Shown here piece after piece: positions 9,473 through 40,012 of a stretch of 64,000 bases of DNA. Numbering within the stretch: position 1 is the first letter of the stretch; each line of letters opens with the position of its first letter. The stretch spans positions 203,736 through 267,735 of the forward strand of contig CAWJZV010000004.1 of assembly GCA_963847445.1 (NCBI GenBank), given 5' to 3'. This stretch comes from an uncultured delta proteobacterium (lineage in GTDB: Bacteria > Desulfobacterota > Binatia > UBA9968). The notes under the pieces were generated by a model. It made no database searches. It had not been told where the DNA came from and worked only from the letters and a program-made list of their open reading frames with translations. The translations under genes and the position numbers were made by a program.

Positions 9473-9588
9473 CAGGGCCGATTGAAATTGAATCTGGCCG
9501 CGAAGTCAACGTGCCAGCCTTTGTTTCAACCTACCAGTTGTTGTACTGTTGTCAGGGGCGATCCCACCATCGGTTTTGGAGGTCCGGA

Positions 9589-10587
9589 ATGAAACATGTT
9601 TCGCAAATTTTTGCCCTTTGGAGCGTCATCACCGTAATCCAATTTGCCGCGCAAACTAGCTTTGCTGCGGACAAGCTCAACACCGCATATATCTCGACCA
9701 CGCCGGGAACATCGACGGTGATCCAGGTCGCCAAGGAAGCTCGCCTGTTCGACAAACATGGCATCGACGCCACCGTTATTTTCATTTCCGGCAGCGTGCG
9801 CGGCATCCAGTCAATTCTCGCAGGAGAAATTCCCATCGGCGAAGGCGGCGGCCCCGGTCTGGCCAGCGCGCGGCTCGCCGGCGGCGATGTCGTCGCCATC
9901 GCCGGCAACGTCAACGTGTTGCCCTATTATTTAGTTTCCCATCCGAGCATCAAACGGCATGAAGATTTGAAAGGTAAGATCGGCGGCACTCATATCGCCG
10001 GCACCACCGCCGAGTTCGCCTTGAAAGTGGGGCTGAAACGCATCGGTCTCGACCCGCTCAAAGATGTCAGCTTGCGCGTCATCGGCGGCGCCATCGAGCG
10101 CATGGTGGCGCTGCAAAAAGGCATCGTCCAGTTCACCGTGGTTACCGAAGCCGGCAAATCTCAGGCCGAGAGACTCGGCTATCCGACGGTGGTCGACATG
10201 GTCACCCTGCAAATCCCCTTTCCGCAGAACGGCATTTATACATCGACAAAGCTGATCCGCGAAAACCCCGACCTGGTGCGCCGCTACATGCGCGCCTACG
10301 TCGAGGCGCTGCACTTCTATAAAACCCATAAGGAAGACACCTTGAAGTTCATGCGCAAATACTCTCGCATCGATGACCGCCGCATGCTCGATGAAGCGTG
10401 GGATTGGCACGCCAAGTTCATGCCCGAAGCGCCCTACCCGCCCGCCGACGGCTATCAACTGGTGCTGCAAGATTTAGCCGAGAAGAATCCCAAAGCCGCC
10501 CAGGCCAACGTGAAAGATTACATCGACACGCGCTTTGTGAAGGAACTGGAAGACTCGGGGTTTATTAAAAGCCTTTATCGTCGATAA
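9589..10587 (+). CDS. ABC substrate-binding protein, SsuA/NMT1-like, no cognate permease nearby
   Basis: Signal peptide from ATG 9589, LFDKHGIDAT, DLKGKIGG, ENPDLVRRYMRAYVEAL, IDTRFVKELEDSGFI. Confidence 0.85.
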   Translation: MKHVSQIFALWSVITVIQFAAQTSFAADKLNTAYISTTPGTSTVIQVAKEARLFDKHGIDATVIFISGSVRGIQSILAGEIPIGEGGGPGLASARLAGGDVVAIAGNVNVLPYYLVSHPSIKRHEDLKGKIGGTHIAGTTAEFALKVGLKRIGLDPLKDVSLRVIGGAIERMVALQKGIVQFTVVTEAGKSQAERLGYPTVVDMVTLQIPFPQNGIYTSTKLIRENPDLVRRYMRAYVEALHFYKTHKEDTLKFMRKYSRIDDRRMLDEAWDWHAKFMPEAPYPPADGYQLVLQDLAEKNPKAAQANVKDYIDTRFVKELEDSGFIKSLYRR

Positions 10588-10697: not shown

Positions 10698-11153
10698 CTA
10701 CAATTTCGCTCGCGAAGCTTCGAGCACCTGATGCATCGGCTCGATATCGATGACTAATGCCGAGAGCTGTAATTTCTCGTCGCGCAGTGATTCCGGCACC
10801 TGACCCATCACGTCCGCTTCGAGCACATGATAAACGGGAATCTTGAGCGCCACGCCGGCCAGCGGCCCGGCGAAACTTGGATCGCCCTCGGTTACCGTCT
10901 CGGCGAATACTTCGACGCCGTTAGCCTCGCCGTTGCCCAACACCACGGTCAAATTTTCCGGACCATACTGGTCCGCCAGGCGCTTGATGACTCCTTGGTT
11001 CTCGAAGTTCATCGCGCCCGCGGCGGTTCAAACAAAGCACTCAGTAGCCTGAAAAACCACCTCGTAGCCCGCGCCTTCGAGACACTCGGCGATGACCGGG
11101 CCGGTGACACCATCCCGTTCGCCGATGGCGATGATCTTTTTACCCTTTTGCAT
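10698..11153 (-). CDS. grdA: Glycine/sarcosine/betaine reductase selenoprotein A (Sec at codon 42; UGA at 11030-11028)
   Basis: Two in-frame track ORFs joined across TGA give [25 protein letters not shown]...[18 protein letters not shown]...[19 protein letters not shown], the GrdA CxxU signature; 151 aa. Confidence 0.93.
10973..11027 (-). promoter_or_regulatory. Putative bacterial SECIS hairpin directly 3' of the grdA UGA
   Basis: mRNA CCGC..CGGGCGC-GAUGA-A-CUUC[GAGAACCAA]GGAG-UCAUC-AA-GCGCCUG-GCGG pairs by eye; apical loop starts with G about 25 nt after the UGA. Confidence 0.65.
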
Positions 11154-11351: not shown

Positions 11352-12778
11352 TTAGTCTTCATTCCGATCGACCAGAAACGAGCAGCCATCCGACAGCTGC
11401 GTCATGCGGCCGAGAAACAAACTACCTTTGGCCATGAGCAGCGCGTTGCGAATCGCGCCGCTCTCGAGCGCCGCCTTGGCATGACCCAAGTAAACGATAG
11501 CCGACGGAATATGACCCTGGGTCGGGGCGTAGCCTAGCATGCCGCGGCTGCGGACGAAATCCTCCATCTGGTTCTTTTGAATCTGCCCGCGCATCACCGC
11601 CAAAGCGGCGAGGGTTAGATAATTCGTCCGCGGCACATCGCCGCTGCCGGAGGGAGCGGTGATTTCCGGGTTATGCAGCTCGACGCCGTAGCGGTCGACA
11701 TCGGTCAGCTTCATGCCGAGCTTGGCTAAGGCTTTCTCGGCCAACTCCTCGGCCATCGCTTGCGCCGAACCGCCGGCGCGCACCGGATGAAACGCCGCGG
11801 AGTCCAGCCGCATGCAGACCTGCCCCGGTTTCGCCGCGCTGAGAATCGCCGCGAAACTGCCAAGCATGTCTTCGAGCACCGGCATATTTTTTTTCAAATG
11901 GGACTCGAACTTCATGCCGAGCTTGGCCAACGACCCGCCGGCGACCACCGCGACCCGTTTCGCGACGCCGGCTTGTATCATGCTCGCGCCCTGTACCATC
12001 GCATACATCGGACCGGCGCAGAACGCTTTGACATCGCAGCCCGAGGCGTTGCCGCAGCCGACGTCCTCGGCGATCGCCTTGGCCAGGTTGCCGCCGCCGC
12101 GATTGTAACGGTCGCCCACCGCTTCTTCGGAACAGCTGATGACGAAATCGATGTCATCGGGCTTGAGCGCCAAGCTGCGCTAACACCAGGCGCAACGCGT
12201 GGGCCGCGGAAACTTTACCGGATAAATTCTCCAATAAGACTTCGGCGGCCAGACTGGCGTCTTCTTCGTGAGCCGCCTCAAAGGCGCCGACGAGTTGGGA
12301 CTCCGAATAAAGCGGCAGCGCGCCTTTGTCGCAGAGCTGTTGAAGTTCGCCCAGCGGCTTGAAGCGCGCCGCCCGGCCGATCGAATGTTTCGCCGCATGA
12401 GCTTGAAACCATTTCTCTTCGAACGAAATCAAATCGAACCGATCCGCGCCGGCGAGCAAAGCATAAAACTTCGCCTGATCGACCAGATCGCCAAAACGCC
12501 CCTGCGCCGTCGCCCCTTCGATCAGTTTCTCAAACCAAGGCTGCGGCAGATCGCGCAGTTTTTCCGGGCCGATGTTGCCAATGTAAACTTGATGCGGCGC
12601 GTAAGCCGTCGCCGCGGGAAAATCACGCAGGAGCCTGGCCAGATCGGCGGCCAGCGCTGGATTACCACGCAACTCGCGAATCGGCTTCGAGCCAAAGCGC
12701 ACCAGATCCGGCACATGGGCCAAGCGAATAGGAAACGCCCTCGATACCGACGCGATTAGGTCTTGTAAATTCTGCCAT
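11352..12778 (-). CDS. grdC: Glycine/sarcosine/betaine reductase component C beta subunit (FabH-like); indels near 12721 and 12170
   Basis: Spliced frames: MAEFTRPNRVGIEGVSYSL/AHVPDLVRFGSKP...AHEEDASLAAEVLLENL...IDFVISCSEEAVGDRYNRGGGNLAKAIAE...KAFCAGP...AGGSLAKLGM...ELHNPEIT...PTQGHIPS...KGSLFLGRMT. Confidence 0.88.
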
Positions 12779-13140: not shown

Positions 13141-14193
13141 TTATCTTATGACCCTATCCGCCCGCGCCAGCACATTCGGCGGCACCGTCACGCCGATCTG
13201 CTTGGCGGCTTTCAAATTGACGACGAACTCAAACTTCGTCGGCTGCTCGACTGGAATGTCGGCGGGCTTGGTGCCTTTCAAGATCTTGTCGACAAAGTCA
13301 GCGGCGCGCCGGAATAAGTCCGCATTGTTCGGCGCGTAGCTCATCAAGCCGCCGGCCTCGACAAACTCAGTGTATGCGTACATCGCCGGCAAACGGTTCT
13401 TTGCCACGAATTCCAACACTTGGCGGTGCTGAGTATTGATAAGTGCACCTGTGGTCGTAATGAGCGCCTGGGCGCCGTCCCTTTTCGCCCGCGCGAATGC
13501 GCTGTCAAAATCGTCAAGGCTTCGCACCGAAAGCGATAGAAGTTTGAGTCCCAACGCCTTGGCCACAGCCTCCATGTCTGTGAGGGGCAGGTTTCCCATC
13601 GTGCCACCCGATCCTCGCCATAGGAAGGCCACCCGGACAACCTTAGGGAAGGCTTCCTTGAGCAGCTCCAACCGTTTGCCATCTAGATCCGTCACCATTA
13701 GGCTAAGTCCGGTGATATTCCCTCCTGGTCGCGCCAAGCTGGCGACAATCCCAGTTCCTACTGGATCGTTCGTACCGCCGAACACGATGGGAATTGTCGC
13801 GCTCGCCTTCTTAGCAGCTAAAACAGATTGGACTCCGGTGGTGACGATGACGTCAACTTTGAGACGGACCAGTTCGGCTGCAAGGTCAGGCAACCGTTCG
13901 AGTTTCCCTTCTGCATATCGGTACTCAATGAAAATGTTTTTCCCTTCGACATAGCCAAGCTCGCGCAGCCGTTGGCGAAATGCCTCGATCCGGGCCGAAA
14001 TGAAGGACGCGGAGGGCGGGGCCAGAATTCCTATCCGGGGAATTCCCGCCGGCTGCTGTGCCTCTACCACCACCCCGCACATCACGAGCGTGAGGGCGAT
14101 GATGACAGTCCCACCCCATTTTGGATTTTTGATTTTGGATTTCGGATTGTCGGGGGAAGAAACCCACCATCGCATCCAATGCTTATTGCTCAT
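13141..14193 (-). CDS. ABC_sub_bind (PF04392-type, putative Trp/Tyr-binding) substrate-binding protein, array copy 1
   Basis: AQQP..IPRIGIL, LRELGYVEGKNI.IEYRYAEGK, SLARPGGNITGL, GGLMSY, VDKILKG.KP.DIPVEQPTKFE; start ATG 14193. Confidence 0.92.
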   Translation of the reverse strand: MSNKHWMRWWVSSPDNPKSKIKNPKWGGTVIIALTLVMCGVVVEAQQPAGIPRIGILAPPSASFISARIEAFRQRLRELGYVEGKNIFIEYRYAEGKLERLPDLAAELVRLKVDVIVTTGVQSVLAAKKASATIPIVFGGTNDPVGTGIVASLARPGGNITGLSLMVTDLDGKRLELLKEAFPKVVRVAFLWRGSGGTMGNLPLTDMEAVAKALGLKLLSLSVRSLDDFDSAFARAKRDGAQALITTTGALINTQHRQVLEFVAKNRLPAMYAYTEFVEAGGLMSYAPNNADLFRRAADFVDKILKGTKPADIPVEQPTKFEFVVNLKAAKQIGVTVPPNVLARADRVIR

Positions 14194-14235
14194 GTTCTTT
14201 TCCCCAATCCAAAATCGAAAATCCAAAGTCCAAAA
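14119..14235. repeat. Heptamer (TTTTGGA/TCCAAAA) inverted repeat enclosing the RBS and ATG of SBP copy 1
   Basis: Upstream arm TTTTGGACTTTGGATTTTCGATTTTGGATT; in-CDS arm AATCCGAAATCCAAAATCAAAAATCCAAAA (encodes NPKSKIKNPK). Confidence 0.88.
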
Positions 14236-15285
14236 TTATTTTAAGACGCGGTCCGCCCGCGCCAGCACATTCGGCGGAACCGTCACGCCGATCTGCTTGG
14301 CGGCTTTTAGATTGACGACGAACTCGAACTTCGTCGGCTGCTCGACGGGAATGTCGCCGGGCTTTGTGCCCTTCAATATCTTGTCGACAAAGTCAGCGGC
14401 GCGCCGCCATTGGTCCGTTTGGCTTGGCGCGTAGCTCATCAAGCCGCCAGCCTCAACCCACTCACTCGTTGGGTACATCGCCGGCAACCGATTCTTTGCC
14501 GCGAAGTCCAACACTTGGCGTTGCTGAGTAGTGATAAGTCCACCTACGGCCGTAATGAGCGCCTGGACGCCTTCCCTTTTCGCTCGTGCAAATGCGCTCT
14601 CAAAATCGTCCAGGCTTCGCACCTCCAGCGATAGAAGTTTGAGTCGCAACGCCTTGGCCGCAGCTTCCATGTCTGTAAGGGTTAAGTTTCCTCTCGCACC
14701 ACCCGACCCCCCCCAGAGGAAGGCCACCCGGGCAATCTTAGGGAAGGCTTCCTTGAGCAGCTCCAACCGCTTGCCATCTAGATCTGGCGCCATCACGCTA
14801 AGTCCGGTGATATTCCCTCCTGGTCGCGCCAGGCTGGAAACGAACCCACTTCCTACTGGATCGGAAGCAAGAGCGAATACGATGGGAATCGTCGCGCTCG
14901 CTTTCTTAGCAGCTAAAACAGCCGAGCTGACGGTGACGATAACATCAACTTTGAGACCGACCAGTTCGGCTGCAAGGGCAGGCAGCCGTTCGAGTTTCCC
15001 CTCTGCATATCGGTACTCAATGACAATGTTTTTCCCTTGGACATAGCCAAGCTCGCGCAGCCGTTGGCGAAATGCTTCGAGCCGGGCCGAAATGTTGGAC
15101 GCGGAGGTCGTGATCAGAATTCCTATCTGGGGAATTCCCGCCGGCTGCTGCGCCTCGACCACCACCCCGCACATCGCGAGCGTGAGGGCGATGACGACAG
15201 TCCCACCCCATTTTGGATTTTTGATTTTGGATTTTGGATTGTCGGAAGAAGAAACCCACCATCGCATCCAATGCTTTTTGCTCAT
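14236..15285 (-). CDS. ABC_sub_bind substrate-binding protein, array copy 2
   Basis: Intact 349-aa ORF with the same framework as copy 1. Confidence 0.92.
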   Translation of the reverse strand: MSKKHWMRWWVSSSDNPKSKIKNPKWGGTVVIALTLAMCGVVVEAQQPAGIPQIGILITTSASNISARLEAFRQRLRELGYVQGKNIVIEYRYAEGKLERLPALAAELVGLKVDVIVTVSSAVLAAKKASATIPIVFALASDPVGSGFVSSLARPGGNITGLSVMAPDLDGKRLELLKEAFPKIARVAFLWGGSGGARGNLTLTDMEAAAKALRLKLLSLEVRSLDDFESAFARAKREGVQALITAVGGLITTQQRQVLDFAAKNRLPAMYPTSEWVEAGGLMSYAPSQTDQWRRAADFVDKILKGTKPGDIPVEQPTKFEFVVNLKAAKQIGVTVPPNVLARADRVLK

Positions 15286-15327
15286 GTTCTTTTCCCCAAT
15301 CCAAAATCGAAAATCTAAAATCCAAAA
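15211..15327. repeat. Heptamer inverted repeat enclosing the RBS and ATG of SBP copy 2
   Basis: ttttggatttttgattttggattttggatt ... aatccaaaatcgaaaatctaaaatccaaaa. Confidence 0.88.
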
Positions 15328-16381
15328 TTATTTTAAGACTCGATCCGCCCGCGCCAGCACATTCGGCGGAACCGTCACGCCGATCTGCTTCGGCGATCTT
15401 CAGGTTGATCGACGAACTCAAACTTCGTCGGCTGCTCGACGGGAATGTCGGCGGGCTTGGTGCCTTTCAAGATCTTGTCGACAAAGTCAGCGGCGCGCCG
15501 CCATAAGTCCGCATAGTTCGGCGCGTAGCTCATCAAGCCGCCGGCCTCAACAAACTCACTCGTCTGGGTACATCGCCGGCAACCGGTTCTTTGCCGCGAA
15601 GTCCAACACTTGACGTTGCTGAGTAGTGATAAGTGGACCTGGGGTCGTAATGAGCGCCTGGGCGCGTTCCCTTTTCGCTCGCGCGAATGCGCTCTCAAAA
15701 TCGTCAAGGCTTCGCACCTCAAGCGATTGAAGTTTGACTCCCAACGCCTTGGCCGCAGCCTCCATGTCTGTGAGAGCTCAGGTTTCCCCTCGTACCACCC
15801 GATTCCCAGAGGAACGCCACGCGGGCAACCTTGGGGAAGGCTTCCTTGAGCAGTTCCAACCGTTTGCCATCTAGATCCGGCGCCATGATGGCAAAGTCCG
15901 GTGATATTCCCGCCTGGTCGCGCCAGGCTGGAGACAAGCCCAGCTCCTACTGGATCGGCAGCAGAGCCGAATACGATGGGAATTGTCGCGCTCGCCTTTT
16001 TAGCAGCTAAAATAGCCCGGGCCGGTGGCGACGATGACGTCAACTTTGAGACGGACCAGCTCGGCTGCAAGGTCAGGCAGCCGTTCGGGTTTCCCTTCTG
16101 CGTATCGGTACTCAATGAAAATGTTTTTCCCTTCGACGTAGCCAAGCTCGCGCAGCCGTTGGCGAAATGCTTCGACCCGGGCCGAAATGACGGACGCGGA
16201 GAACGGGATCAGAATTCCTATCCGGGGAATTCTCGCCGGCTGCTGCGCCTCGGCCACAACCCCGCACATTGCGAGTGCGAGCACGAGGGCGACAGAGCCC
16301 CACCGATTTTGGATTTTGGATTTTCGATTTTGGATTGTCGGATCGAAGCCAGCGAATTGCAGTCCAAAATTTCTTTGTCAT
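15328..16381 (-). CDS. ABC_sub_bind substrate-binding protein, array copy 3 (several 1-nt indels)
   Basis: Fragments in ORFs 16112-16381, 16000-16284, 15375-16145, 15719-15937 and 15556-15765 splice into a full paralog. Confidence 0.85.
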
Positions 16382-16438
16382 GTCCTAGTCCTCCAATCCA
16401 AAATCCAAAAGCGGCCCCGCGGACGCAAATCCAAAATC
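16305..16438. repeat. Heptamer inverted repeat enclosing the start of SBP copy 3
   Basis: gattttggattttggattttcgattttggatt ... aatccaaaatccaaaa...aaatccaaaatc. Confidence 0.85.
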
Positions 16439-16444
16439 AGTATT

Positions 16445-17496
16445 CTAATGACCCGATCCGCCCGCGCCAGCACATTCGGCGGGAATCGTCAGGCCGATCT
16501 GCTTGGCGGCTTTCAGATTGATGACGAACTCGAACTTCGTCGGCTGCTCGACGGGAATGTCGCCGGGCTTTGTGCCCTTCAAGATTTTGTCGACAAAGTC
16601 AGCGGCGCGCCGGAATAAGTCCGCATAGCTCGGCGCGTAGCTCATCAAGCCGCCGGCCTCAACCAACTCACTCGTTGGGTACATCGCCGGCAACCGGTTC
16701 TTGGCCGCGAAGTCCAACACTTGGCGTTGCTGAGTAGTGATAAGTGGACCTGGTGGTCGTAATGAGCGCCTGGGCGCCGTCCCTTTTCGCTCGCGCGAAT
16801 GCGCCCTCAAAATCGTCAAGGCTTCGCACCTCAAGCGATTGAAGTTTGACTCCCAACGCCTTGGCCGCAGCCTCCATTTCTGTGAGAACCAGGTTTCCCC
16901 TCGGACCACTCGATCTGGCCAGAGGAAGGCCACCCGGGCAACCTTGGGGAAGGCTTCCTTGAGCAGTTCCAATCGTTTGCCATCTAGATCTGGCGACATG
17001 ACGCTAAGTCCGGTGATATTCCCGCCTGGTCGTGCCAGGCTGGAAACAAACCCAGTTCCTACTGGATCGCCAGAAGAGGCGAATACGATGGGAATTGTCG
17101 CGCTCGCCTTCTTGGCAGCTAAAGCAGCGCGGCCGGTGGTGACGATGACGTCAACTTTGAGACGGACCAGCTCGGCTGCAAGGTCAGGCAGCCGTTCGCG
17201 TTTCCCTTCTGCGTATCGGTACTCAATGAGAATGTTTTTCCCTTCGACATAGCCAAGCTCGCGCAGCCGTTGGCGAAATGCTTCGACCCGGGCCGAAAAG
17301 AAGGACGCGGAGGCCGTGATCAGAATTCCTATCCGGGGAATTCTCGCCGGCTGCTGCGCCTCGACCACACCCCGCAGATCGACGAACGTGATGACGAGAG
17401 TGACAAGCCCCACCGATTTTAGACTGCGAGGCCGATTTTGGATTTTGATTTTGGATTTCGGAACAAAGCCGCCATCGCATCCAATCTCTTTGTCAT
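16445..17496 (-). CDS. ABC_sub_bind substrate-binding protein, array copy 4 (indels)
   Basis: ORFs 16445-17527 and 16668-16877 splice into a full paralog; likely start ATG 17496. Confidence 0.85.
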
Positions 17497-17537
17497 GTTC
17501 TATTCCCAATCCAAAATGCCAGGTCAAAATCCAAAAT
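17415..17537. repeat. Heptamer inverted repeat enclosing the start of SBP copy 4
   Basis: gattttggattttgattttggatttcg ... aatccaaaatgccaggtcaaaatccaaaa. Confidence 0.8.
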
Positions 17538-18109
17538 GACTTGCCTTTCTAGCTCCGTGAAGCTGTGATGCTTCAAGAACACCTCAGCATCGCCGGCAGA
17601 GAAGAAGACCAATTTGACGGCATCGATCGATTTATCAACCGACAGAAACTGCTCGATGGTGCGCGACGACACACCCGCTGCCTTATCCATCGGATAACCG
17701 TAAATCCCGGTGGAGATCGCCGGGAAAGCGATTGACTTGAGTCCATGCGTCAACGGCTAGACGTAATGAATTGAAATAGCACGCCGCCAACAGTTCGGCC
17801 TTGTCCGACGCCACCGCTGCCGTAGACCGGACCGACGGTGTGAATCACATACTTCGCTGGCAATTTTCCACCTATGGTGATCACCGCCTCTCCGGTGGGC
17901 AATCCATCGGGATACTGTGTCCGGCGAATCTCCGCGCAAGCCGCTTTGATCTCCGGCCCGCCGGCGCGGTGAATCGCGCCGTCCACACCGCCGCCACCCA
18001 TCAACGTGCCATTGGCCGCGTTGACGATGGCGTCGACCGCTTCTTTGGTGATGTCGCCGACATTGATCGCGACCCGGCCAGCCAAGTAGGTTTTAAGCGC
18101 AGTCATCAT
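17493..18109 (-). CDS. Macro-domain O-acetyl-ADP-ribose deacetylase (YmdB-like), frameshifted
   Basis: [41 protein letters not shown], then [15 protein letters not shown] in the next frame; exact 3' end uncertain. Confidence 0.88.
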
Positions 18110-18179
18110 CTCTCCCGCTTTATATTACTATCGCGCAAGTTTGCGAGCTTGGGCAAATCATGATTCGAAGCTCTCGATC

Positions 18180-18327
18180 GGAATTCCTCCCGCAAGGCGC
18201 AAAGAGCCAAGTTCGGAATTGTTGTCATTTCGACCGGCGGGAGAAATCTTCAGATCCCTCGCGATTGCTCGGGATGACGGGCATCGGTTCCACCTTTGCG
18301 CCTTAGCGCCTTTGCGGGAGAGATTCC
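18180..18327. repeat. CGCAAAG/CTTTGCG palindromic element with a nested GTCAT...ATGAC element (18224-18278)
   Basis: ctcccgcaaggcgcaaagagccaag ... ctttgcgccttagcgcctttgcgggag flanking gtcatttcgacc...gagaaatct..agatccctcg...ctcgggatgac. Confidence 0.78.
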
Positions 18328-18660
18328 GGTTTCGGTTGCACCTGTTCGCCAACAGGCGAAGCTCTTTTTCCCAGCGCAGTCTGGGGAAAACATGAGTTGC
18401 AATCTATTAGAATTTGCCACGCCTGCGCAAATTGTGTTGCCACCCGTCGCCGCTCCACCACCCCAGGGCGTATGACATACGCCACATTTCGGATCTCGTT
18501 TTGCGCCCTTTGCGTTCCTTGCGGCCATTCTTCCGAATCCGCATCTTCTCTCTGTGACCTCTGTCACAGCGTCACACTGGTCAAGCGCGCGCGCTTGACT
18601 CCCGCGCCACAAACAAGCCAAAGTACCAGCCGATTCCAGCTCAACATCGCGAGGCTCTCG

Positions 18661-19627
18661 ATGATCGTCAACTGTGTCGCCTATGAGAACGGACGGAGAC
18701 TAACCAACATACCGGTGAGCGAGATTCATTCCTACATTTCTCACGCGGATTGTTTCGTCTGGGTGGCGCTCAACGACGCGACACCGGAAGAGCTCCAGGC
18801 GATGCAAGAGGAATTCGGCCTCCACGATCTCGCTCTGGAAGATGCCCAGCATGGCCATCAGCGGCCGAAGATTGAAGAATACGAAGACTCGCTGTTTGCC
18901 GTCTTGCAAATGATCGAACGCAGCGGTGACGAGTTGAATGTTGGCGAGGTCGGCATATTCGTCGGCACCAATTATGTTCTGTCGGTGCGCTCCGGCGCCG
19001 AACGCGGCTTTACCGATGTGCGCGCCCGCTGCGAGCGCGAGCCCGAACTATCTGCGCCATGGCTCGGGCTACGTCCTCTACGCTCTGATGGACGCGGTCG
19101 TCGACCGTTATTTTCCAATACTCGACGATCTCGAAACCGAGATTGAAAATATCGAAGACCGCATGTTCGCCAACCAGAACGCCAGGGATAACATCGAGGC
19201 GCTCTACGATTTGAAGCGCAAGTTGTTGACTCTCAAGCATGCCACCGAGCCGTTGCTCGAAGCCACCAGCAAACTGTTCGGCGGCCGCGTGCCGCGGCTG
19301 GCGGTGGGACTGCAAGACTATTTCCGTGATGTTTACGATCATGTGCTGCGCGTGCACCAATCCGTCGACAGCCTGCGCGACATGATCACTACCGCCATCT
19401 CGGTGGCGATCTCGCTCATCACGATTCAAGAAAACGAAGTGACCAAGCGACTCGCCGGCTATGGCGCTTTGGTCACGGTGCCGACATTAATCGCAGGGAT
19501 TTACGGCATGAACTTCCAGCACATGCCGGAACTTAGCTCGCCCTGGGGTTATCCGTTCACCGTCGCGGCAATGATCGCCATCGATCTCTTTTTGTTCTGG
19601 CGCTTCCGCAAAGCCAAGTGGATTTAG
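18661..19627 (+). CDS. corA: Magnesium/cobalt transporter CorA (frameshift near 19050)
   Basis: FGLHDLALED..HQRPKIEEY, then LYALMDAVVD.YF, YFRDVYDH, IAGIYGMNF..MPEL. Confidence 0.92.
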
Positions 19628-28744: not shown

Positions 28745-28774
28745 CGTTAGGTCGCTCATCTCTGTCTCTGTCTC
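28724..28774. terminator. GAGAC/GTCTC hairpin between the convergent usp and pntB ends
   Basis: gagatcagagacttgagatagcg-ttaggt-cgctcatctctgtctctgtctc. Confidence 0.5.
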
Positions 28775-30153
28775 AATACTCTTTCAATCCCTTGACCAGT
28801 GCCGTCAGCGTCTGGTTGGCGTCGCCAAAGAGCATCATGGTATTGGCTCGGGAGAATAATTCGTTGTCGATCTTAGCGAAGCCGGGGGCCATGCCGCGTT
28901 TGAGCACGATGACCGTGCGCGCCGATTCGGCATCGAGTACCGGCATGCCGTAGATCGCACTATTGGGGTCATGCTTGGCTGCCGGGTTGACTACGTCATT
29001 GGCACCGACGACCAGGGCGACATCGGTGGTGGCGAATTCATTGTTGATCGCGTCGATGTCGTAGAGCCGGTCATAGGGCACGTTGGCCTCGGCGAGCAGC
29101 ACATTCATATGGCCGGGCATCCGGCCGGCCACGGGATGAATTGCGTATTTAACCGTGAGACCGCGCTGCTCCAATAATTCACCCAACTCACGCAAGGCAT
29201 GCTGACAGCGCGCCGCCGCCATGCCGTAACCGGGAACGACGATCACCGATCTGGCGCTGGTGAGGACAATCAACGCATCACCGATGGTGGCGCCGAGCGT
29301 AGTCTGACGCGCCGCCGCACCGGCTTGGCCGCCGCCGCTTTCCCGTCCGAAACCACCAAAGATAATATTGCCAAACGACCGATTCATCGCCTTGCTCATG
29401 GCCAGCGAAAGGAAAAAGCCCGACGCACCGTCGAGGGCGCCGCAGACGATCAAAACACTGTTAGACAAAGCGAATCCGGTGGCCACCGCGGCCAGGCCGG
29501 CGTAGGAATTCAACAGCGAGATCACCACCGGCATATCGGCGCCGCCGATAGGCAGCACCAGCAAAACCCCCAACACGAAAGCGCCACCCGGCCATGCCGT
29601 AAAATACTTGCCGAGCGGCGGGGTGCACCGTCAGGTAGGCGATGGCCGCGAGCGCGCCCGCCAGCAGCGCGATATTCAGGCCGTTCTGAAAGCGGTGCGT
29701 CAAGGGCCGTTCGGCGACGGCACCTTGGAGTTTGCCGAAGGCGATCAGGCTACCGGTAAAGGTTATCGCGCCGAGCAACACCTCAAAACCGAGGGCGGCA
29801 ATCTTCGCCGCGCCAAGCTCCGCCGCCATGGCGCGCATACTCGGCGATCCCCACCAAAGCCGCGGCCAGACCGCCAAAGGAGTGGGACAGCGCGATCCGC
29901 TCCGGCATCTTGGCCATCGGAATAAATAACGCCATGGCGATGCCAACGGCCGAGCCGATGGCGACGCCGGCGATAATCCAATCGTAACGAACCAGCTGGT
30001 TGCCGAGTAAAGTACCGGCGACGGCGATCGCCATCGCCAAGCCGGCGAGCCACACGCCGCGCCGGGCGGTTTCCGGCGCGCGCAATTGATGCAGGCCAAA
30101 GACAAATAGCAGCGCGGCGACGAGATAAGCGGTTCCGCCAATGGCGTCGTCAC
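28773..30153 (-). CDS. pntB: NAD(P) transhydrogenase beta subunit (frameshifted)
   Basis: MPERIAL.HSFGGLAA, GAITFTGSLIAFGKLQG, PIGGADMPVVISLLNSY, VVPGYGMA, AIHPVAGRMPGHMNVLLAEA, GANDVVNPAA. Confidence 0.92.
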
Positions 30154-37329: not shown

Positions 37330-38072
37330 TCACCTGATGGTTTCAATCTTGGGCATAAACTCCAGCGTAAACACTTCATCGGCAACGATCTTCTTTTTAA
37401 CGTTGGCATACGCGATGATGGACTGATAGCCCTTATAGAGCGGGCTGTCGGTCTCGATGACAGACGGCCGCCGCACCCCTTCGAACGGTTTGATTTCTTT
37501 AAAATAGAGAGTCTTGATCAAAAGACCGGTCGCGGCATAGCATTCGATCTTGGTCGGAACCACCGCCTTCTTATCGACCCACATCTTCAGTTTGTCGTAC
37601 GCCACCGCGGCGGTCTTCGCCTTCAAATTGAGTACATACTCGCTCTTGCCATCCTCCATGTTTTGGACGTTGTATTCCACGTTGTAGTCGAGGCGCATGA
37701 TGTCGGCGTTGTTGAACACGCCGCCGACAACTGACTGGAGACTGGTGATCCGCACCGGTTTGCCGACATTGGGGATATAGAGCCACATGTTGTCGCCCAG
37801 TCGGAGCGTAGCTCGACCTTTTTCGCTGGCCGGTGAAAGAAATAGTGAAACAATTTTGTCGTTGCCCTTTTTTAAGTGTGTAAAGGAGAAATTCCCTCTT
37901 GGCGCCGCTCGGCTCGATGTTGATCAGCTTGCGGTAGGATTCAAATGACTCCGGTTGGAGATTGGCGTCCACTTTCTTGAGAATCTCTGTCCCATCTAAA
38001 GCGAACACTGGGGTTGCCAAGAGCAACGTGAGACCCAGAGCGAAGAACCGTTTGATATAGTGGTCTTTTCAT
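37330..38072 (-). CDS. Outer-membrane lipoprotein-sorting (LolA-like) protein, frameshifted
   Basis: EILKKVDANL.P, FLSPASEKGRATLRLGDNMWLYIPNVGKPVRI, VAYDKLKMWVD. Confidence 0.8.
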
Positions 38073-39318
38073 ACATGCCTCAACGCGTCGATCGGTTCCA
38101 TCCTGGAAGCCTTGTACGCCGGCTGTAGGCTCGCAAGAACGGAAACTATGATCACCATGAGAGAAGCCGTTACAACCTCCATCGGCGCGATCGTTGGGGC
38201 GAGAATAAGACCCGTGGCCTGGCCAAAGTTGAAGGTAATTTTCGAGACGTACAACGCCAAGATAATTCCCAAACCGAAAACCACACCGACAACCGCGCCA
38301 GTTACGCCAAGACAAAAGCCTTCCACCAGAAACAGCGAAAGGATCTTTCGTGGCAGCGTCCCGATTGCCGCGATCGTGCCGATTTCTCTGACACGCTCAT
38401 AGACCGCCATGATCATGACGTTGAGAATGCTGATCAGCACGATGGCGATGAGCATCAGCTTGATGAAAAAAGTCATCAGGTCGATCATATTGGCGATGTT
38501 GGCGAAGGGTGATAGTTGCGCCCACGTGTGGACCTCGATGGCGCCACCTTTTTGCTTTTTCTCTCCCAAGCCAAGTGCTGCCTCGGATAGCTTTGAGCGA
38601 CCCCTTCCACCGCCGGAAGAGATTTTACTCGAACTGCGATCTCGCTCACCTCTTTGCCGGACATCCGCAAAATTTCTCTGGCGTCATCGAAATTGATGTA
38701 ACCGTCTCGGCCGCCCGGTCCGGTAGCGCTTTCCAGAATGCCGCTGACGAGAAATGTCTTGCCGTTGACCGATCCATCTTTGTTGGTCGCGACTATTACG
38801 ACGGTGTCGCCGACTTTGGCGCCAAAGCCTTGGGCCAGCAGTTTCGGCACCAGCATTTTCCCCTTTTCCAACGAACGGACACTCTTTTCCCCTTCCAAAA
38901 TCCGCGAGAGCATCTGCGGCAAGGCGGCAAACTCTTTTTCCGGATAAACGCCGTTGATCCTGATATTGGTGGTCTCGGTAAAATTGCTGAATAGGGCGCC
39001 AAACTTTATCCGCTCCGAATAGGCTTCGATGTCCTTATTCCCCGCCAGGGTTTTTTCGAGCTGCGATACCGCGGCAGGTGGGAGATTCATATTCAAAGGA
39101 AGGCTTTCAATAGACGCCACATAACCGCCGCGATGGATCTGCAAGGCCCCCAGATAAGAATCGGTGATCTGGGCGATCATGAAATCCTTGATCGAAACGG
39201 TCACCGCGACGAAGACCAGAACGAAGACGACTCCGAAGGCGATCAACGAGACGGTCAGGAGGCTCCGCCTCTTATAGCGCAGTAAGTTTCGCGCCGCGAT
39301 CTTCATCAGATTGAACAT
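38069..39318 (-). CDS. FtsX/LolE-like ABC permease, frameshifted
   Basis: KIAARNLLRYKRRSLLT; NVMIMAVYERVREIGTI.AIG, PAYKASRMEPIDALR. Confidence 0.88.
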
Positions 39319-40012
39319 TAGCTTTACCCTTCTCTTCCCGATTTAGAAGGCGACCGTCTTCCAGGGAGTAGATAATTTCCGCCTCGCCAATGATTCGCGT
39401 ATCGTGCGTCGAAAAGATAAACGTAATGCCGAAGTTATCTCTCATCTGCTTCATCAATCGGAGAATCATGTACGCAGTCTCATGATCCAGGTTTGCGGTC
39501 GGCTCATCGGCGAGGACCAACTTTGGCCGGGTGACCAGCGCGCGGGCGATCGCAACCCGTTGCTTCTGACCGCCGGAAAGCTGATCCGGCATTTGATTCT
39601 TTTGCTCTAGCATTCCCACGGCTTGTAAGGCTTTGAGCACCCGGTCGCGGCGCTCGGCCAGAGGCAGTTCTTGCACCATCACCAGCGGGTACTCGACGTT
39701 CTCAAAAGCCGTCAAGACGGCAAGTAAATTGAAACTCTGGAAAATAAAGCCGATATTTTGCCCGCGAAACTCTGCCGCTTGGCGCCGATCCAACCCGAGG
39801 ACATCGATCCCCGCCACCTGTAACTCTCCACTGGTCGGTTTGTCCAAGCATCCGACAAGATTGAGCAACGTTGTCTTGCCGCTGCCCGAAGGCCCGATGA
39901 ACGCGAGGAAGGCACCTGCCTCGATCTCGAAACTGACCTCCTGCAAGGCTTTCACTTCCACACTGTCGGTTGCGTATGTCTTAGTCAAACTTTTTGCGAC
40001 AATCAGGCTCAT
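39272..40012 (-). CDS. LolD/MacB-type ABC ATP-binding protein
   Basis: [40 protein letters not shown]. Confidence 0.92.
   Translation of the reverse strand: MSLIVAKSLTKTYATDSVEVKALQEVSFEIEAGAFLAFIGPSGSGKTTLLNLVGCLDKPTSGELQVAGIDVLGLDRRQAAEFRGQNIGFIFQSFNLLAVLTAFENVEYPLVMVQELPLAERRDRVLKALQAVGMLEQKNQMPDQLSGGQKQRVAIARALVTRPKLVLADEPTANLDHETAYMILRLMKQMRDNFGITFIFSTHDTRIIGEAEIIYSLEDGRLLNREEKGKANVQSDEDRGAKLTAL

What the first reader, a model, noticed from the sequence alone, without database searches (positions are those of the whole stretch)
13141..17537. Tandem array of four orphan substrate-binding proteins: constant framework with hypervariable loops
Seen: four head-to-tail units of about 1.1 kb encode ABC_sub_bind SBPs with long near-identical stretches, while differences cluster in about eight short segments: GIL[APP/ITT/IPF/ITA]SAS[FI/NI/VI/FF]; VIV[TTGVQS/TVSSA/ATG./TTGRAA]; IVF[GGTN/ALAS/GSAA/ASSG]DP; GL.[LMVT/VMAP/IMAP/VMSP]D; FLW[RGSGGTM/GGSGGAR/ESGGTR/PDRVVR]; LIT[TTGA/AVGG/TPGP/TT..]; AMY[AYT/PTS]E[F/W/F/L]; YAP[NNADLF/SQTDQW/NYADLW/SYADLF]. 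No cognate permease or ATPase is adjacent. Known: in type I periplasmic binding folds, loops following the core beta-strands line the ligand cleft. Inference: an antibody-like repertoire of periplasmic receptors, expanded by duplication and diversified at the binding site, perhaps sharing one distant transporter or sensor. Copies 3 and 4 contain indels, so some of their segments are less certain.
Basis: partly seen in the sequence, partly recalled or inferred. Interest (0 to 1): 0.82.

Follow-up and report, generated by a model that had tools for sequence, protein, structure and literature searches.

The report
Four fast-diverging orphan binding-protein genes
Four side-by-side copies of a periplasmic nutrient-receptor gene keep an almost identical scaffold but are being pushed apart by selection exactly where the ligand sits; they belong to a genus-wide family of dozens of such receptors with no matching transporter next to them.

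Summary
Window 13141-17537 (minus strand) carries four head-to-tail PF04392 (ABC_sub_bind) genes, 87-93% identical in DNA. Copies A and B are intact. C has seven and D three frame-breaking single-base indels, probably assembly errors, because neighbouring conserved genes carry the same kind.

Differences sit in short loops after beta-strands. Nine of ten positions homologous to the published ligand contacts of TrpX/CD0873 vary among the four copies. At 48 codons chosen independently (hypervariable in 14 relatives), omega is 3.4 (LRT against 1, p about 3e-5); at the other 259 it is 0.27. Synonymous divergence is equal in both classes. No DGR signature was found.

Three related genomes have one copy at the syntenic locus. 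The genus carries 18-43 full-length family members per good genome, but only 4-5 Liv/Urt-type permease pairs. The canonical single-permease partner turned up in 4 of 20 genus genomes and not in this one.

Best reading: a birth-and-death repertoire of orphan receptors under diversifying selection on specificity. The closest known kind is the TTT/Bug orphan expansions. Ligands and membrane partner are unknown. "Antibody-like" overstates it. The scan earlier noted many-receptor arrays of another SBP family (LivK type) on other DNA.

The parts
13141..14193 (-). Copy A: intact PF04392 binding-protein gene (ATG 14193, stop 13141-13143; mature part from codon at 14064)
   Evidence: AF2 model pLDDT 93, TM 0.89/0.92 to 3LKV
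14236..15285 (-). Copy B: intact PF04392 gene, 83% aa identical to A
15328..16381 (-). Copy C: PF04392 gene broken by seven single-base insertions (one of them in the signal-peptide region); no in-frame stop once they are dropped
16445..17527 (-). Copy D: PF04392 gene with one 1-nt deletion and two 1-nt insertions in the mature part, and a frame-shifted N-terminal region relative to its ATG at 17495
13993..14022 (-). Variable patch 1 in copy A (residues 15-24, after strand 10-15)
13819..13842 (-). Variable patch 2 in copy A (residues 75-82, after strand 72-75); V78 aligns with the ligand-binding Thr of TrpX/3LFT
13768..13779 (-). Variable patch 3 in copy A (residues 96-99); G97 and N99 align with ligand-binding Ala and Thr of TrpX
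13690..13701 (-). Variable patch 4 in copy A (residues 122-125, after strand 117-121); L122 aligns with ligand-binding Asp of TrpX
13585..13617 (-). Variable patch 5 in copy A (residues 150-160, after strand 144-149; carries indels between copies; lowest model confidence)
13435..13458 (-). Variable patch 6 in copy A (residues 203-210, after strand 200-203); T203/T204 and A207 align with CD0873 V235/P236 and TrpX N233
13363..13377 (-). Variable patch 7 in copy A (residues 230-234, after strand 227-229); A230/Y231 align with CD0873 A262/E263, a specificity determinant
13312..13329 (-). Variable patch 8 in copy A (residues 246-251, after strand 241-245); N247 aligns with CD0873 Y279 / SP1069 Q284, a specificity determinant
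14105..14245 (-). Long imperfect hairpin enclosing ribosome-binding site and start codon of copy A; equivalents at 15197-15337 (B), 16293-16433 (C), 17405-17545 (D)
   Evidence: z = -2.8, -6.0, -1.3, -2.0; motif statistics

Best explanation
The locus is a real, young tandem expansion of a periplasmic type-I (cluster B) solute-binding protein of family PF04392. It is one small part of a genus-wide, birth-and-death expansion of this family. After duplication the copies kept the two-lobed scaffold under purifying selection. The loops at the C-terminal ends of the beta-strands, which line the ligand cleft, were driven apart by positive selection, so each copy probably recognises a different small molecule. 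The residues that hold the amino and carboxyl groups of aromatic amino acids in the characterised members are replaced and variable here, so the ligands are probably not standard amino acids. Shown: the four copies, the fold, where the variation lies, dN/dS above 1 at contact positions, and the absence of a cognate-type transporter nearby and in most genomes of the genus. Inferred: secretion by a Sec signal peptide (read by eye), different ligands per copy, and delivery to a shared membrane partner encoded elsewhere. My guess for that partner is one of the 4-5 Liv-type PF02653 permease pairs (about 45%) or a sensor (about 20%). The frame-breaking indels in C and D are most likely assembly errors (about 65%).
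For: Array and family.

Fold: the AF2 model has pLDDT 93.0 and pTM 0.89. Foldseek TM is 0.85-0.92 to 3LKV, 3LFT and 6HNI.

Position of variation: 27/56 post-strand positions vary against 45/251 elsewhere (p=5e-6). Cross-validated hypervariable sites give 37/48 against 35/259 (p=3e-18). Nine of 10 codons homologous to published ligand contacts vary among A-D, against a background of 72/307 (hypergeometric p=1.2e-5), and pN/pS there is 3.76. The contact list is TrpX T108, A127, T129, D152, N233, Q273 (PMC9382623, section 13 read) and CD0873 V235, P236, A262, E263, Y279 (PMC6816091, passages read). The mapping uses the alignments.

Selection: by Nei-Gojobori, pooled pN/pS is 2.19 at 48 independently chosen codons and 0.24 at the other 259, with equal pS (0.146 and 0.157). 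ML omega is 3.41 against 0.27. The LRT against omega=1 gives 2dlnL=17.5, p about 3e-5. The reciprocal test, on 12 other sequences at A-D-variable codons, gives omega 1.45 (p=0.003) against 0.21. Excluding the two indel-bearing loops still gives pN/pS 2.43.

Recent origin: the syntenic locus in G003, G014 and G007 holds one copy. Other arrays in this genome are 29-73% identical, against 83% here.

Expansion and orphan status: 17 of 18 same-genus genomes have matches at E<=1e-40. Five good genomes hold 18-43 full-length PF04392 matches against 8-11 PF02653 matches. This genome's four PF02653 loci are permease pairs, and three of them have their own Peripla_BP_5/6 receptor beside them. The canonical single permease was found in 4 of 20 genus genomes and not here.

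Indels as errors: six single-base insertions, unique to the window against all three relatives, lie in flanking sequence including Macro, CorA and GrdC. CorA and PntB are split in Pfam coordinates. The contexts are the same non-homopolymer kind as in C and D. C has no in-frame stop and 6 synonymous to 4 non-synonymous private scaffold changes.
Against: No ligand, expression or partner data exist.

Sites were chosen by amino-acid variability in relatives, which enriches for high-omega sites. Recombination among copies and multi-nucleotide changes can also inflate omega. Under the null, kappa was only searched on a coarse grid.

With a purely structural site definition (5 residues after every strand) omega is only about 1.05-1.18 in 16 sequences, and pooled pN/pS is 1.24 in A-D.

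The scaffold tree is poorly resolved (backbone support 13-56%) and does not show A-D as a clade. In-situ duplication after the split from G003 is therefore not proven.

Copy C carries 7 indels per kb against roughly 0.5 per kb in the flanks, so it could be a true pseudogene.

No sequencing run holding this DNA was available (best share of words 0.22), and only short contigs of relatives could be laid. The four-copy structure is therefore not confirmed by reads.

I had no model coordinates, so cleft location rests on secondary structure plus homology to published contact residues.
Confidence: 0.7

Rival explanations
1. Assembly artefact: the four units are alleles of one hypervariable locus from co-existing strains, strung together by a long-read metagenome assembler.
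For: Three related genomes have a single copy at the syntenic site. The assembly is visibly noisy. No run holding the DNA could be laid to check.
Against: The copies differ by 7-13% in DNA, and their longest exact shared stretch is only 39-72 nt, so reads would not confuse them. Each unit has its own complete leader and spacer. Tandem arrays of this family are common in the genus, including short-read assemblies with many contigs. Other arrays exist in this genome.
Confidence: 0.07
2. Decay, not selection: copies C and D (and perhaps others) are pseudogenes, and the loop differences are neutral drift at unconstrained surface loops.
For: C and D contain 7 and 3 frame-breaking indels. That density is higher than in the flanks. 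Many family members elsewhere in the genome are fragmented.
Against: Omega at the loops is significantly above 1, not merely near 1. The intact pair A-B shows the same pattern (dN/dS 2.29 in the loops against 0.21 elsewhere). The same positions vary in 14 relatives from other genomes. C and D have no in-frame stops once the indels are set aside, and scaffold dN/dS for C-D is 0.27. All seven of C's breaks are +1 insertions, with none a deletion, which is unlike natural decay.
Confidence: 0.12
3. Targeted hypermutation or cassette exchange: a diversity-generating retroelement, or programmed gene conversion from silent donors, rewrites the loops.
For: The variable patches are short and sharply bounded. 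Informative sites support conflicting partitions (10 AB|CD, 12 AC|BD, 5 AD|BC) in fewer runs than chance (13 against 18.0, p=0.027), which points to some exchange between copies.
Against: The genome has one reverse transcriptase, on another contig (C45). No template repeat matches the array there: the longest match in the first 8 kb of that contig is 15 nt. Variation at hypervariable codons affects all four bases (A 30/30, C 42/47, G 35/37, T 26/30), not adenines only. Synonymous divergence is not raised in the patches, which argues against import from distant donors.
Confidence: 0.04

Closest known systems
Lineage-specific expansions of orphan TTT-family (TctC/Bug) solute-binding proteins in Bordetella, Cupriavidus and Rhodoplanes (PMC5994714, abstract and passages read)
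   Same: Both have dozens to hundreds of periplasmic receptor paralogs per genome, many in tandem arrays, and far more receptors than membrane components. In both cases the proposed roles are shared transporters or sensing.
   Different: The protein family and fold class differ (PF04392, ABC-type cluster B, not PF03401), and so does the lineage (uncultured MAGs labelled delta proteobacterium, Binatia or Syntrophobacter sp. SbD2). Here a very young array (83% aa identity) allows a direct dN/dS test, and it shows positive selection at contact positions. The passages I retrieved from that paper report no such test; a search of its text for 'positive selection' gave 0 occurrences.
Aromatic amino-acid receptors of PF04392: TrpX/SP1069 (3LFT, Trp), VC_1101 (3LKV, Phe), CD0873 (6HNI, Tyr)
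   Same: Same Pfam family and same fold (TM 0.85-0.92).
   Different: Sequence identity is about 25%. The conserved Thr/Ala/Thr/Asp/Asn contact residues are replaced and variable. There is no adjacent single permease plus ATPase operon.
E. coli LivJ/LivK sharing LivHMGF (several receptors for one ABC core); recalled, not looked up here
   Same: It sets the precedent that more than one binding protein can dock on one PF02653-type permease pair.
   Different: That case has two receptors, encoded next to the transporter. Here there are dozens, of another family, and none is adjacent.

Membership tests
PF04392 ABC_sub_bind | Match to the Pfam model above the gathering score | tested here: met
   A scores 169.8 bits, B 165.3 and D 130.3 against a cut-off of 25.9. 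C matches in pieces.
PF04392 ABC_sub_bind | Two-lobed type I / cluster B periplasmic binding fold | tested here: met
   AF2 pLDDT 93.0. Foldseek TMq/TMt is 0.89/0.92 to 3LKV and 0.86/0.89 to 6HNI.
PF04392 ABC_sub_bind | N-terminal export signal | not tested
   Read by eye only: a basic n-region (PKSKIKNPK), a hydrophobic stretch (TVIIALTLVMCGVVV) and VEA-QQ. No predictor was run.
TrpXYZ / CD0873-type aromatic amino-acid ABC importers | Receptor gene in an operon with one PF02653 permease and one ATPase | tested here: not met
   Nothing of that type lies beside the array. This genome has only four PF02653 pairs, three with their own Peripla_BP_5/6 receptor. The canonical permease of G015 has no tblastn hit in this genome and was found in 4 of 20 genus genomes.
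TrpXYZ / CD0873-type aromatic amino-acid ABC importers | Conserved ligand-contact residues (TrpX T108, A127, T129, D152, N233) | tested here: not met
   The aligned positions 78, 97, 99, 122 and 207 read V/S/x/G, G/L/S/S, N/S/A/G, L/V/L/V and A/G/P/P in A-D.
Orphan solute-receptor expansions (TTT/Bug-like kind) | Many paralogs per genome, tandem arrays, few membrane components | tested here: met
   There are 60 matched pieces in this genome. Five good relatives hold 18-43 full-length matches against 8-11 permease matches. Arrays are seen.
Orphan solute-receptor expansions (TTT/Bug-like kind) | Membership of the TctC family PF03401 | tested here: not met
   Pfam gives PF04392, not PF03401. TctC-type genes do exist elsewhere in the genome.
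Diversity-generating retroelement target | Nearby reverse transcriptase, a template repeat, and adenine-specific variation | tested here: not met
   The one RT lies on contig C45. No template match longer than 15 nt was found. All four bases vary.

The most novel reading that the evidence does not exclude
The expanded PF04392 clade is an olfactory-receptor-like chemoreceptor repertoire. Its strongly conserved scaffold docks on one membrane partner that is not the canonical PF04392 permease. That permease was not found in 16 of 20 genus genomes, including genomes 98-99% complete that carry 35-43 receptors. On this reading it is a new receptor-dependent uptake or signalling system in an uncultured soil and sediment lineage, with ligand specificities evolving by birth-and-death and positive selection.
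Probability: 0.2. Interest if true: 0.8.

Novelty: new variant of a known kind. Interest (0 to 1): 0.55.

Why it matters
Orphan binding-protein expansions are known for the TTT/Bug family, but what drives them is still argued. This array is young enough (dS 0.09-0.24) to catch the process at work. The scaffold is frozen, and the ligand-contact residues turn over faster than silent sites. That makes two questions directly testable in a family with only three ligand-bound structures, all binding aromatic amino acids (PMC10443332, Table 1): whether new paralogs acquire new ligands, and which membrane component dozens of receptors share. The four copies are also a natural set of scaffold-matched binding-site variants for ligand screening or biosensor design.

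Tried and rejected
Read support: no public run holds the stretch (best share of sampled words 0.22, none reaching half). The four runs laid gave only short contigs (about 100-480 nt) of relatives at 88-99% likeness. They show that intact relatives lack the extra bases of C and D. They cannot tell an assembly error from a true frameshift, nor confirm the array.

DGR: rejected.

Scaffold homogenisation by gene conversion as the cause of the 'constant framework': not supported, because pS is the same in scaffold and patches.

Fused sensor forms: among 382 longer homologues (539-2000 aa), the 120 listed carry only PF04392 or overlapping binding-protein families. They look like receptor-receptor fusions, with no kinase, GGDEF or chemoreceptor domains, so they give no hint of the partner.

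Permease pairs near large arrays: G014:C3:841959-843710 and this genome's C24 and C47 turned out to be Liv- or Urt-type systems with their own Peripla_BP_5/6 receptors.

Framework tree: too poorly resolved to date the duplications.

Literature: six papers mention PF04392 and none concerns an expansion. 'Binatota' plus 'substrate-binding' gave none. 'Binatia' plus 'ABC transporter' plus 'binding proteins' gave one unrelated preprint. The search for orphan SBP paralogs under diversifying selection returned nothing relevant among the 15 listed of 96. Supplements could not be opened, so tables of family counts in MAG papers may exist unseen.

Earlier scan notes: none on this place or for PF04392.


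Full report
WHAT IS THERE

On the minus strand of window 13141-17537 lie four head-to-tail units of 1092-1112 nt. I call them A (13141-14193), B (14236-15285), C (15328-16381) and D (16445-17527).

A, B and D match Pfam PF04392 (ABC_sub_bind) at E=1e-49, 2.4e-48 and 1.1e-37. A four-way DNA alignment has 91% mean column identity. Over the mature coding part the copies are 87.3-93.2% identical in DNA, and A and B are 83% identical in protein. The spacers are about 40-60 nt.

One exception is that copy D's 'PDRVVR' is an out-of-frame reading.

THE INDELS

A and B are intact. In the mature part and signal region, C has seven single-base insertions and D has one single-base deletion and two insertions. 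D's N-terminal region is also out of frame with its ATG.

When those columns are set aside, both copies read through without a single in-frame stop and keep the scaffold. C's private scaffold changes are 6 synonymous to 4 non-synonymous.

The window as a whole is noisy. Six single-base insertions that the window alone has, against all three related genomes compared, lie in flanking sequence including the Macro, CorA and GrdC genes. CorA and PntB are split into consecutive pieces of one Pfam profile. Macro is split into two ORFs. The sequence contexts of the flank insertions and the array insertions are the same non-homopolymer kind.

The closest relatives are long-contig MAGs, and some of them also show frame changes in these genes. 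I therefore think the indels are assembly errors (about 65%). Against this, C's density (7 per kb) is well above that of the flanks (about 0.5 per kb), and reads could not settle it. No public run holds the stretch (best share of words 0.22), and only short contigs of relatives could be laid.

IS THE ARRAY REAL?

Three related genomes (G003, G014, G007) have the same neighbourhood but only one receptor gene. That neighbourhood is NMT1-type receptor, GrdA, GrdC, DUF2442, then Macro and CorA, with the single receptor between DUF2442 and Macro.

The four copies share exact stretches of at most 39-72 nt, each has its own leader, and tandem arrays of this family are common in the genus. I rate mis-joined alleles at about 7%. 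Spanning reads are the missing proof.

WHERE THE DIFFERENCES LIE

An AlphaFold2 model of mature A, built from 36 aligned paralogs, has pLDDT 93.0 and pTM 0.89. It superposes on the three solved PF04392 receptors with TM 0.85-0.92.

- Among A-D, 72 of 307 codons vary in amino acid.
- 27 of the 56 positions within five residues after any strand vary, against 45 of 251 elsewhere (p=5e-6).
- I built an 18-sequence codon alignment of the subfamily from at least ten genomes. The 48 codons with four or more amino-acid states among the 14 non-window sequences predict the A-D variable sites: 37/48 against 35/259 (p=3e-18).
- Adjacent variable pairs exceed chance (26 against 16.6, p=0.003).
- A coarser dispersion index in 10-codon bins does not (p=0.24).

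LINK TO KNOWN LIGAND CONTACTS

Two papers name the ligand-binding residues of characterised members:

- TrpX T108, A127, T129, D152, N233 and Q273 (PMC9382623, section 13 read).
- CD0873 V235, P236, A262, E263 and Y279, with SP1069 A268 and Q284 (PMC6816091, passages read).

Using the HMMER alignments, checked by residue spacing in two independent alignments, these map to mature positions 78, 97, 99, 122, 203, 204, 207, 230, 231 and 247.

Nine of the ten vary among A-D (background 72/307, p=1.2e-5), and nine of the ten are in the independent hypervariable set (p=2.5e-7).

The Thr/Ala/Thr/Asp/Asn set that is conserved in the amino-acid binders is replaced here and differs between copies. The ligands are therefore probably not standard alpha-amino acids. 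All three ligand-bound structures of this family hold aromatic amino acids (PMC10443332, Table 1).

SELECTION

Nei-Gojobori estimates for A-D:

| Codon set | dN/dS per pair | Pooled pN/pS | pS |
|---|---|---|---|
| 48 independently chosen codons | 1.7-5.7 | 2.19 | 0.146 |
| Other 259 codons | 0.15-0.32 | 0.24 | 0.157 |

Because pS is the same in both classes, the constant scaffold is not explained by local homogenisation, and the patches are not explained by a general mutational hot spot.

- Maximum-likelihood omega (GY+F1X4) is 3.41 against 0.27. Fixing omega at 1 costs 2dlnL=17.5 (p about 3e-5).
- The reciprocal test, on 12 other sequences at A-D-variable codons, gives 1.45 (p=0.003) against 0.21.
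- At the ten contact-homologous codons pN/pS is 3.76.
- Without the two indel-bearing loops it is still 2.43.
- With a purely structural definition (five residues after every strand) the signal is weaker. Pooled pN/pS is 1.24 in A-D, and omega is about 1.05-1.18 in 16 sequences.

Caveats: sites were pre-selected by variability, there is recombination between copies, and kappa was only coarsely searched under the null.

OTHER MECHANISMS

Informative sites support conflicting groupings (10, 12 and 5 sites) in fewer runs than chance (p=0.027), so some exchange between copies is likely.

A DGR is not supported. The only reverse transcriptase is on contig C45, no template repeat exists there, and all four bases vary at the hypervariable codons.

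THE WIDER PICTURE

This genome holds 60 matched PF04392 pieces. Judging from the tblastn map, that is roughly 35-40 loci, many of them in arrays. Full-length paralogs elsewhere are 33-55% identical to A. Other arrays are 29-73% identical internally, so this array is the youngest.

These tallies include G005, an unpublished genome on which no other claim rests. None of the seven genomes of a sister family has a match.

Five good genomes carry 18-43 full-length matches but only 8-11 PF02653 permease matches, almost all as adjacent pairs.

In this genome the four permease loci are pairs. Three have their own Peripla_BP_5/6 receptor beside them: C24 is Liv-type, C47 is next to urease genes, and C15 has a LivK-like gene. 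The fourth, on C3, was not examined further, and no PF04392 hit lies on that contig.

A canonical PF04392 operon (receptor, one permease, one ATPase) exists in G015. Its receptor is only 25-29% identical to the expanded clade. Its permease has no hit in this genome and was found in only 4 of 20 genus genomes. Those lacking a hit include G014 (99% complete, 43 receptors) and G007 (98%, 35 receptors).

Longer homologues are receptor-receptor fusions, without sensor domains among the 120 listed of 382. Record titles of close relatives read 'uncultured delta proteobacterium', 'Syntrophobacter sp. SbD2' and 'Candidatus Binatia bacterium'.

COMPARISON AND VERDICT

The kind is known: lineage-specific expansions of orphan receptors of the TTT/Bug family. 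Examples are 79-181 genes in Bordetella and 434 in Rhodoplanes, with tandem arrays up to nine and few membrane components (PMC5994714).

This case differs in protein family and lineage. It also offers a young array in which positive selection on ligand-contact residues can be measured. I found no paper on an expansion of PF04392.

The scan has earlier noted many-receptor arrays of the LivK type on other DNA. Those sit beside their transporter.

I file this as a new variant of a known kind, with interest 0.55. 'Antibody-like' should be replaced by 'paralog repertoire under diversifying selection'. The ligands and the membrane partner remain open.

Noticed in passing
window 14105-14245, 15197-15337, 16293-16433, 17405-17545 (minus strand): Each copy's ribosome-binding site and start codon sit inside a long imperfect hairpin. 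The 5' arm (GATTTTGG repeats) lies in the spacer. The 3' arm (CCAAAATC repeats) encodes the basic n-region of the signal peptide (NPKSKIKNPK). Folding z-scores are -2.8, -6.0, -1.3 and -2.0. The 11-mer GATTTTGGATT or its complement occurs 61 times in the genome against about 1.5 expected. It forms 33 clusters, of which 11 lie within 300 nt of a PF04392-like gene. Possible roles are translational control, or a dispersed palindromic repeat that could seed unequal crossing-over.
   Followed up: partly
window 17493-18109 (Macro), 18397-19627 (CorA), 28773-30153 (PntB), 11352-12723 (GrdC-like): Conserved genes are split by single-base frame changes that related genomes lack. The assembly carries residual insertion-type errors, so broken genes in this genome should not be read as pseudogenes without read support.
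   Followed up: partly
window 10698-11012 (minus strand): A glycine-reductase selenoprotein A (GrdA) ORF matches only profile positions 47-144 of 147. The missing N-terminal part would lie upstream of an in-frame stop, as expected for a UGA-selenocysteine codon. A GrdC-like gene (DUF5940 plus ACP_syn_III) lies next to it.
   Followed up: no
L033 and L035 (G007 contigs C180, C100); G000:C24 (L041 2039-3226, 11746-12477); window 9511-10587: Other receptor families are multiplied too. Four to five NMT1-like genes lie beside subfamily copies in G007. TctC-type genes lie near a Liv operon in this genome. An NMT1-type receptor lies 2.5 kb from the array. The lineage seems to expand several orphan receptor families at once.
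   Followed up: no
L124 (G015:C2:229001-249000) 16039-18846: A STAS-domain protein is followed by a single PF02653 permease and an ABC ATPase, with no receptor gene between them. This is an unusual pairing, seen about 8 kb downstream of the ATPase of the canonical PF04392 operon in G015.
   Followed up: no
proteins P0001-P0120: Metagenomes hold hundreds of proteins of 540-735 aa made of two PF04392 units in one frame. They are either true receptor-receptor fusions or gene calls that run through tandem copies.
   Followed up: no
window 37330-40012 (minus strand): A chain of six overlapping same-strand ORFs of 124-277 aa looks like one or two long genes broken by several frame changes.
   Followed up: no
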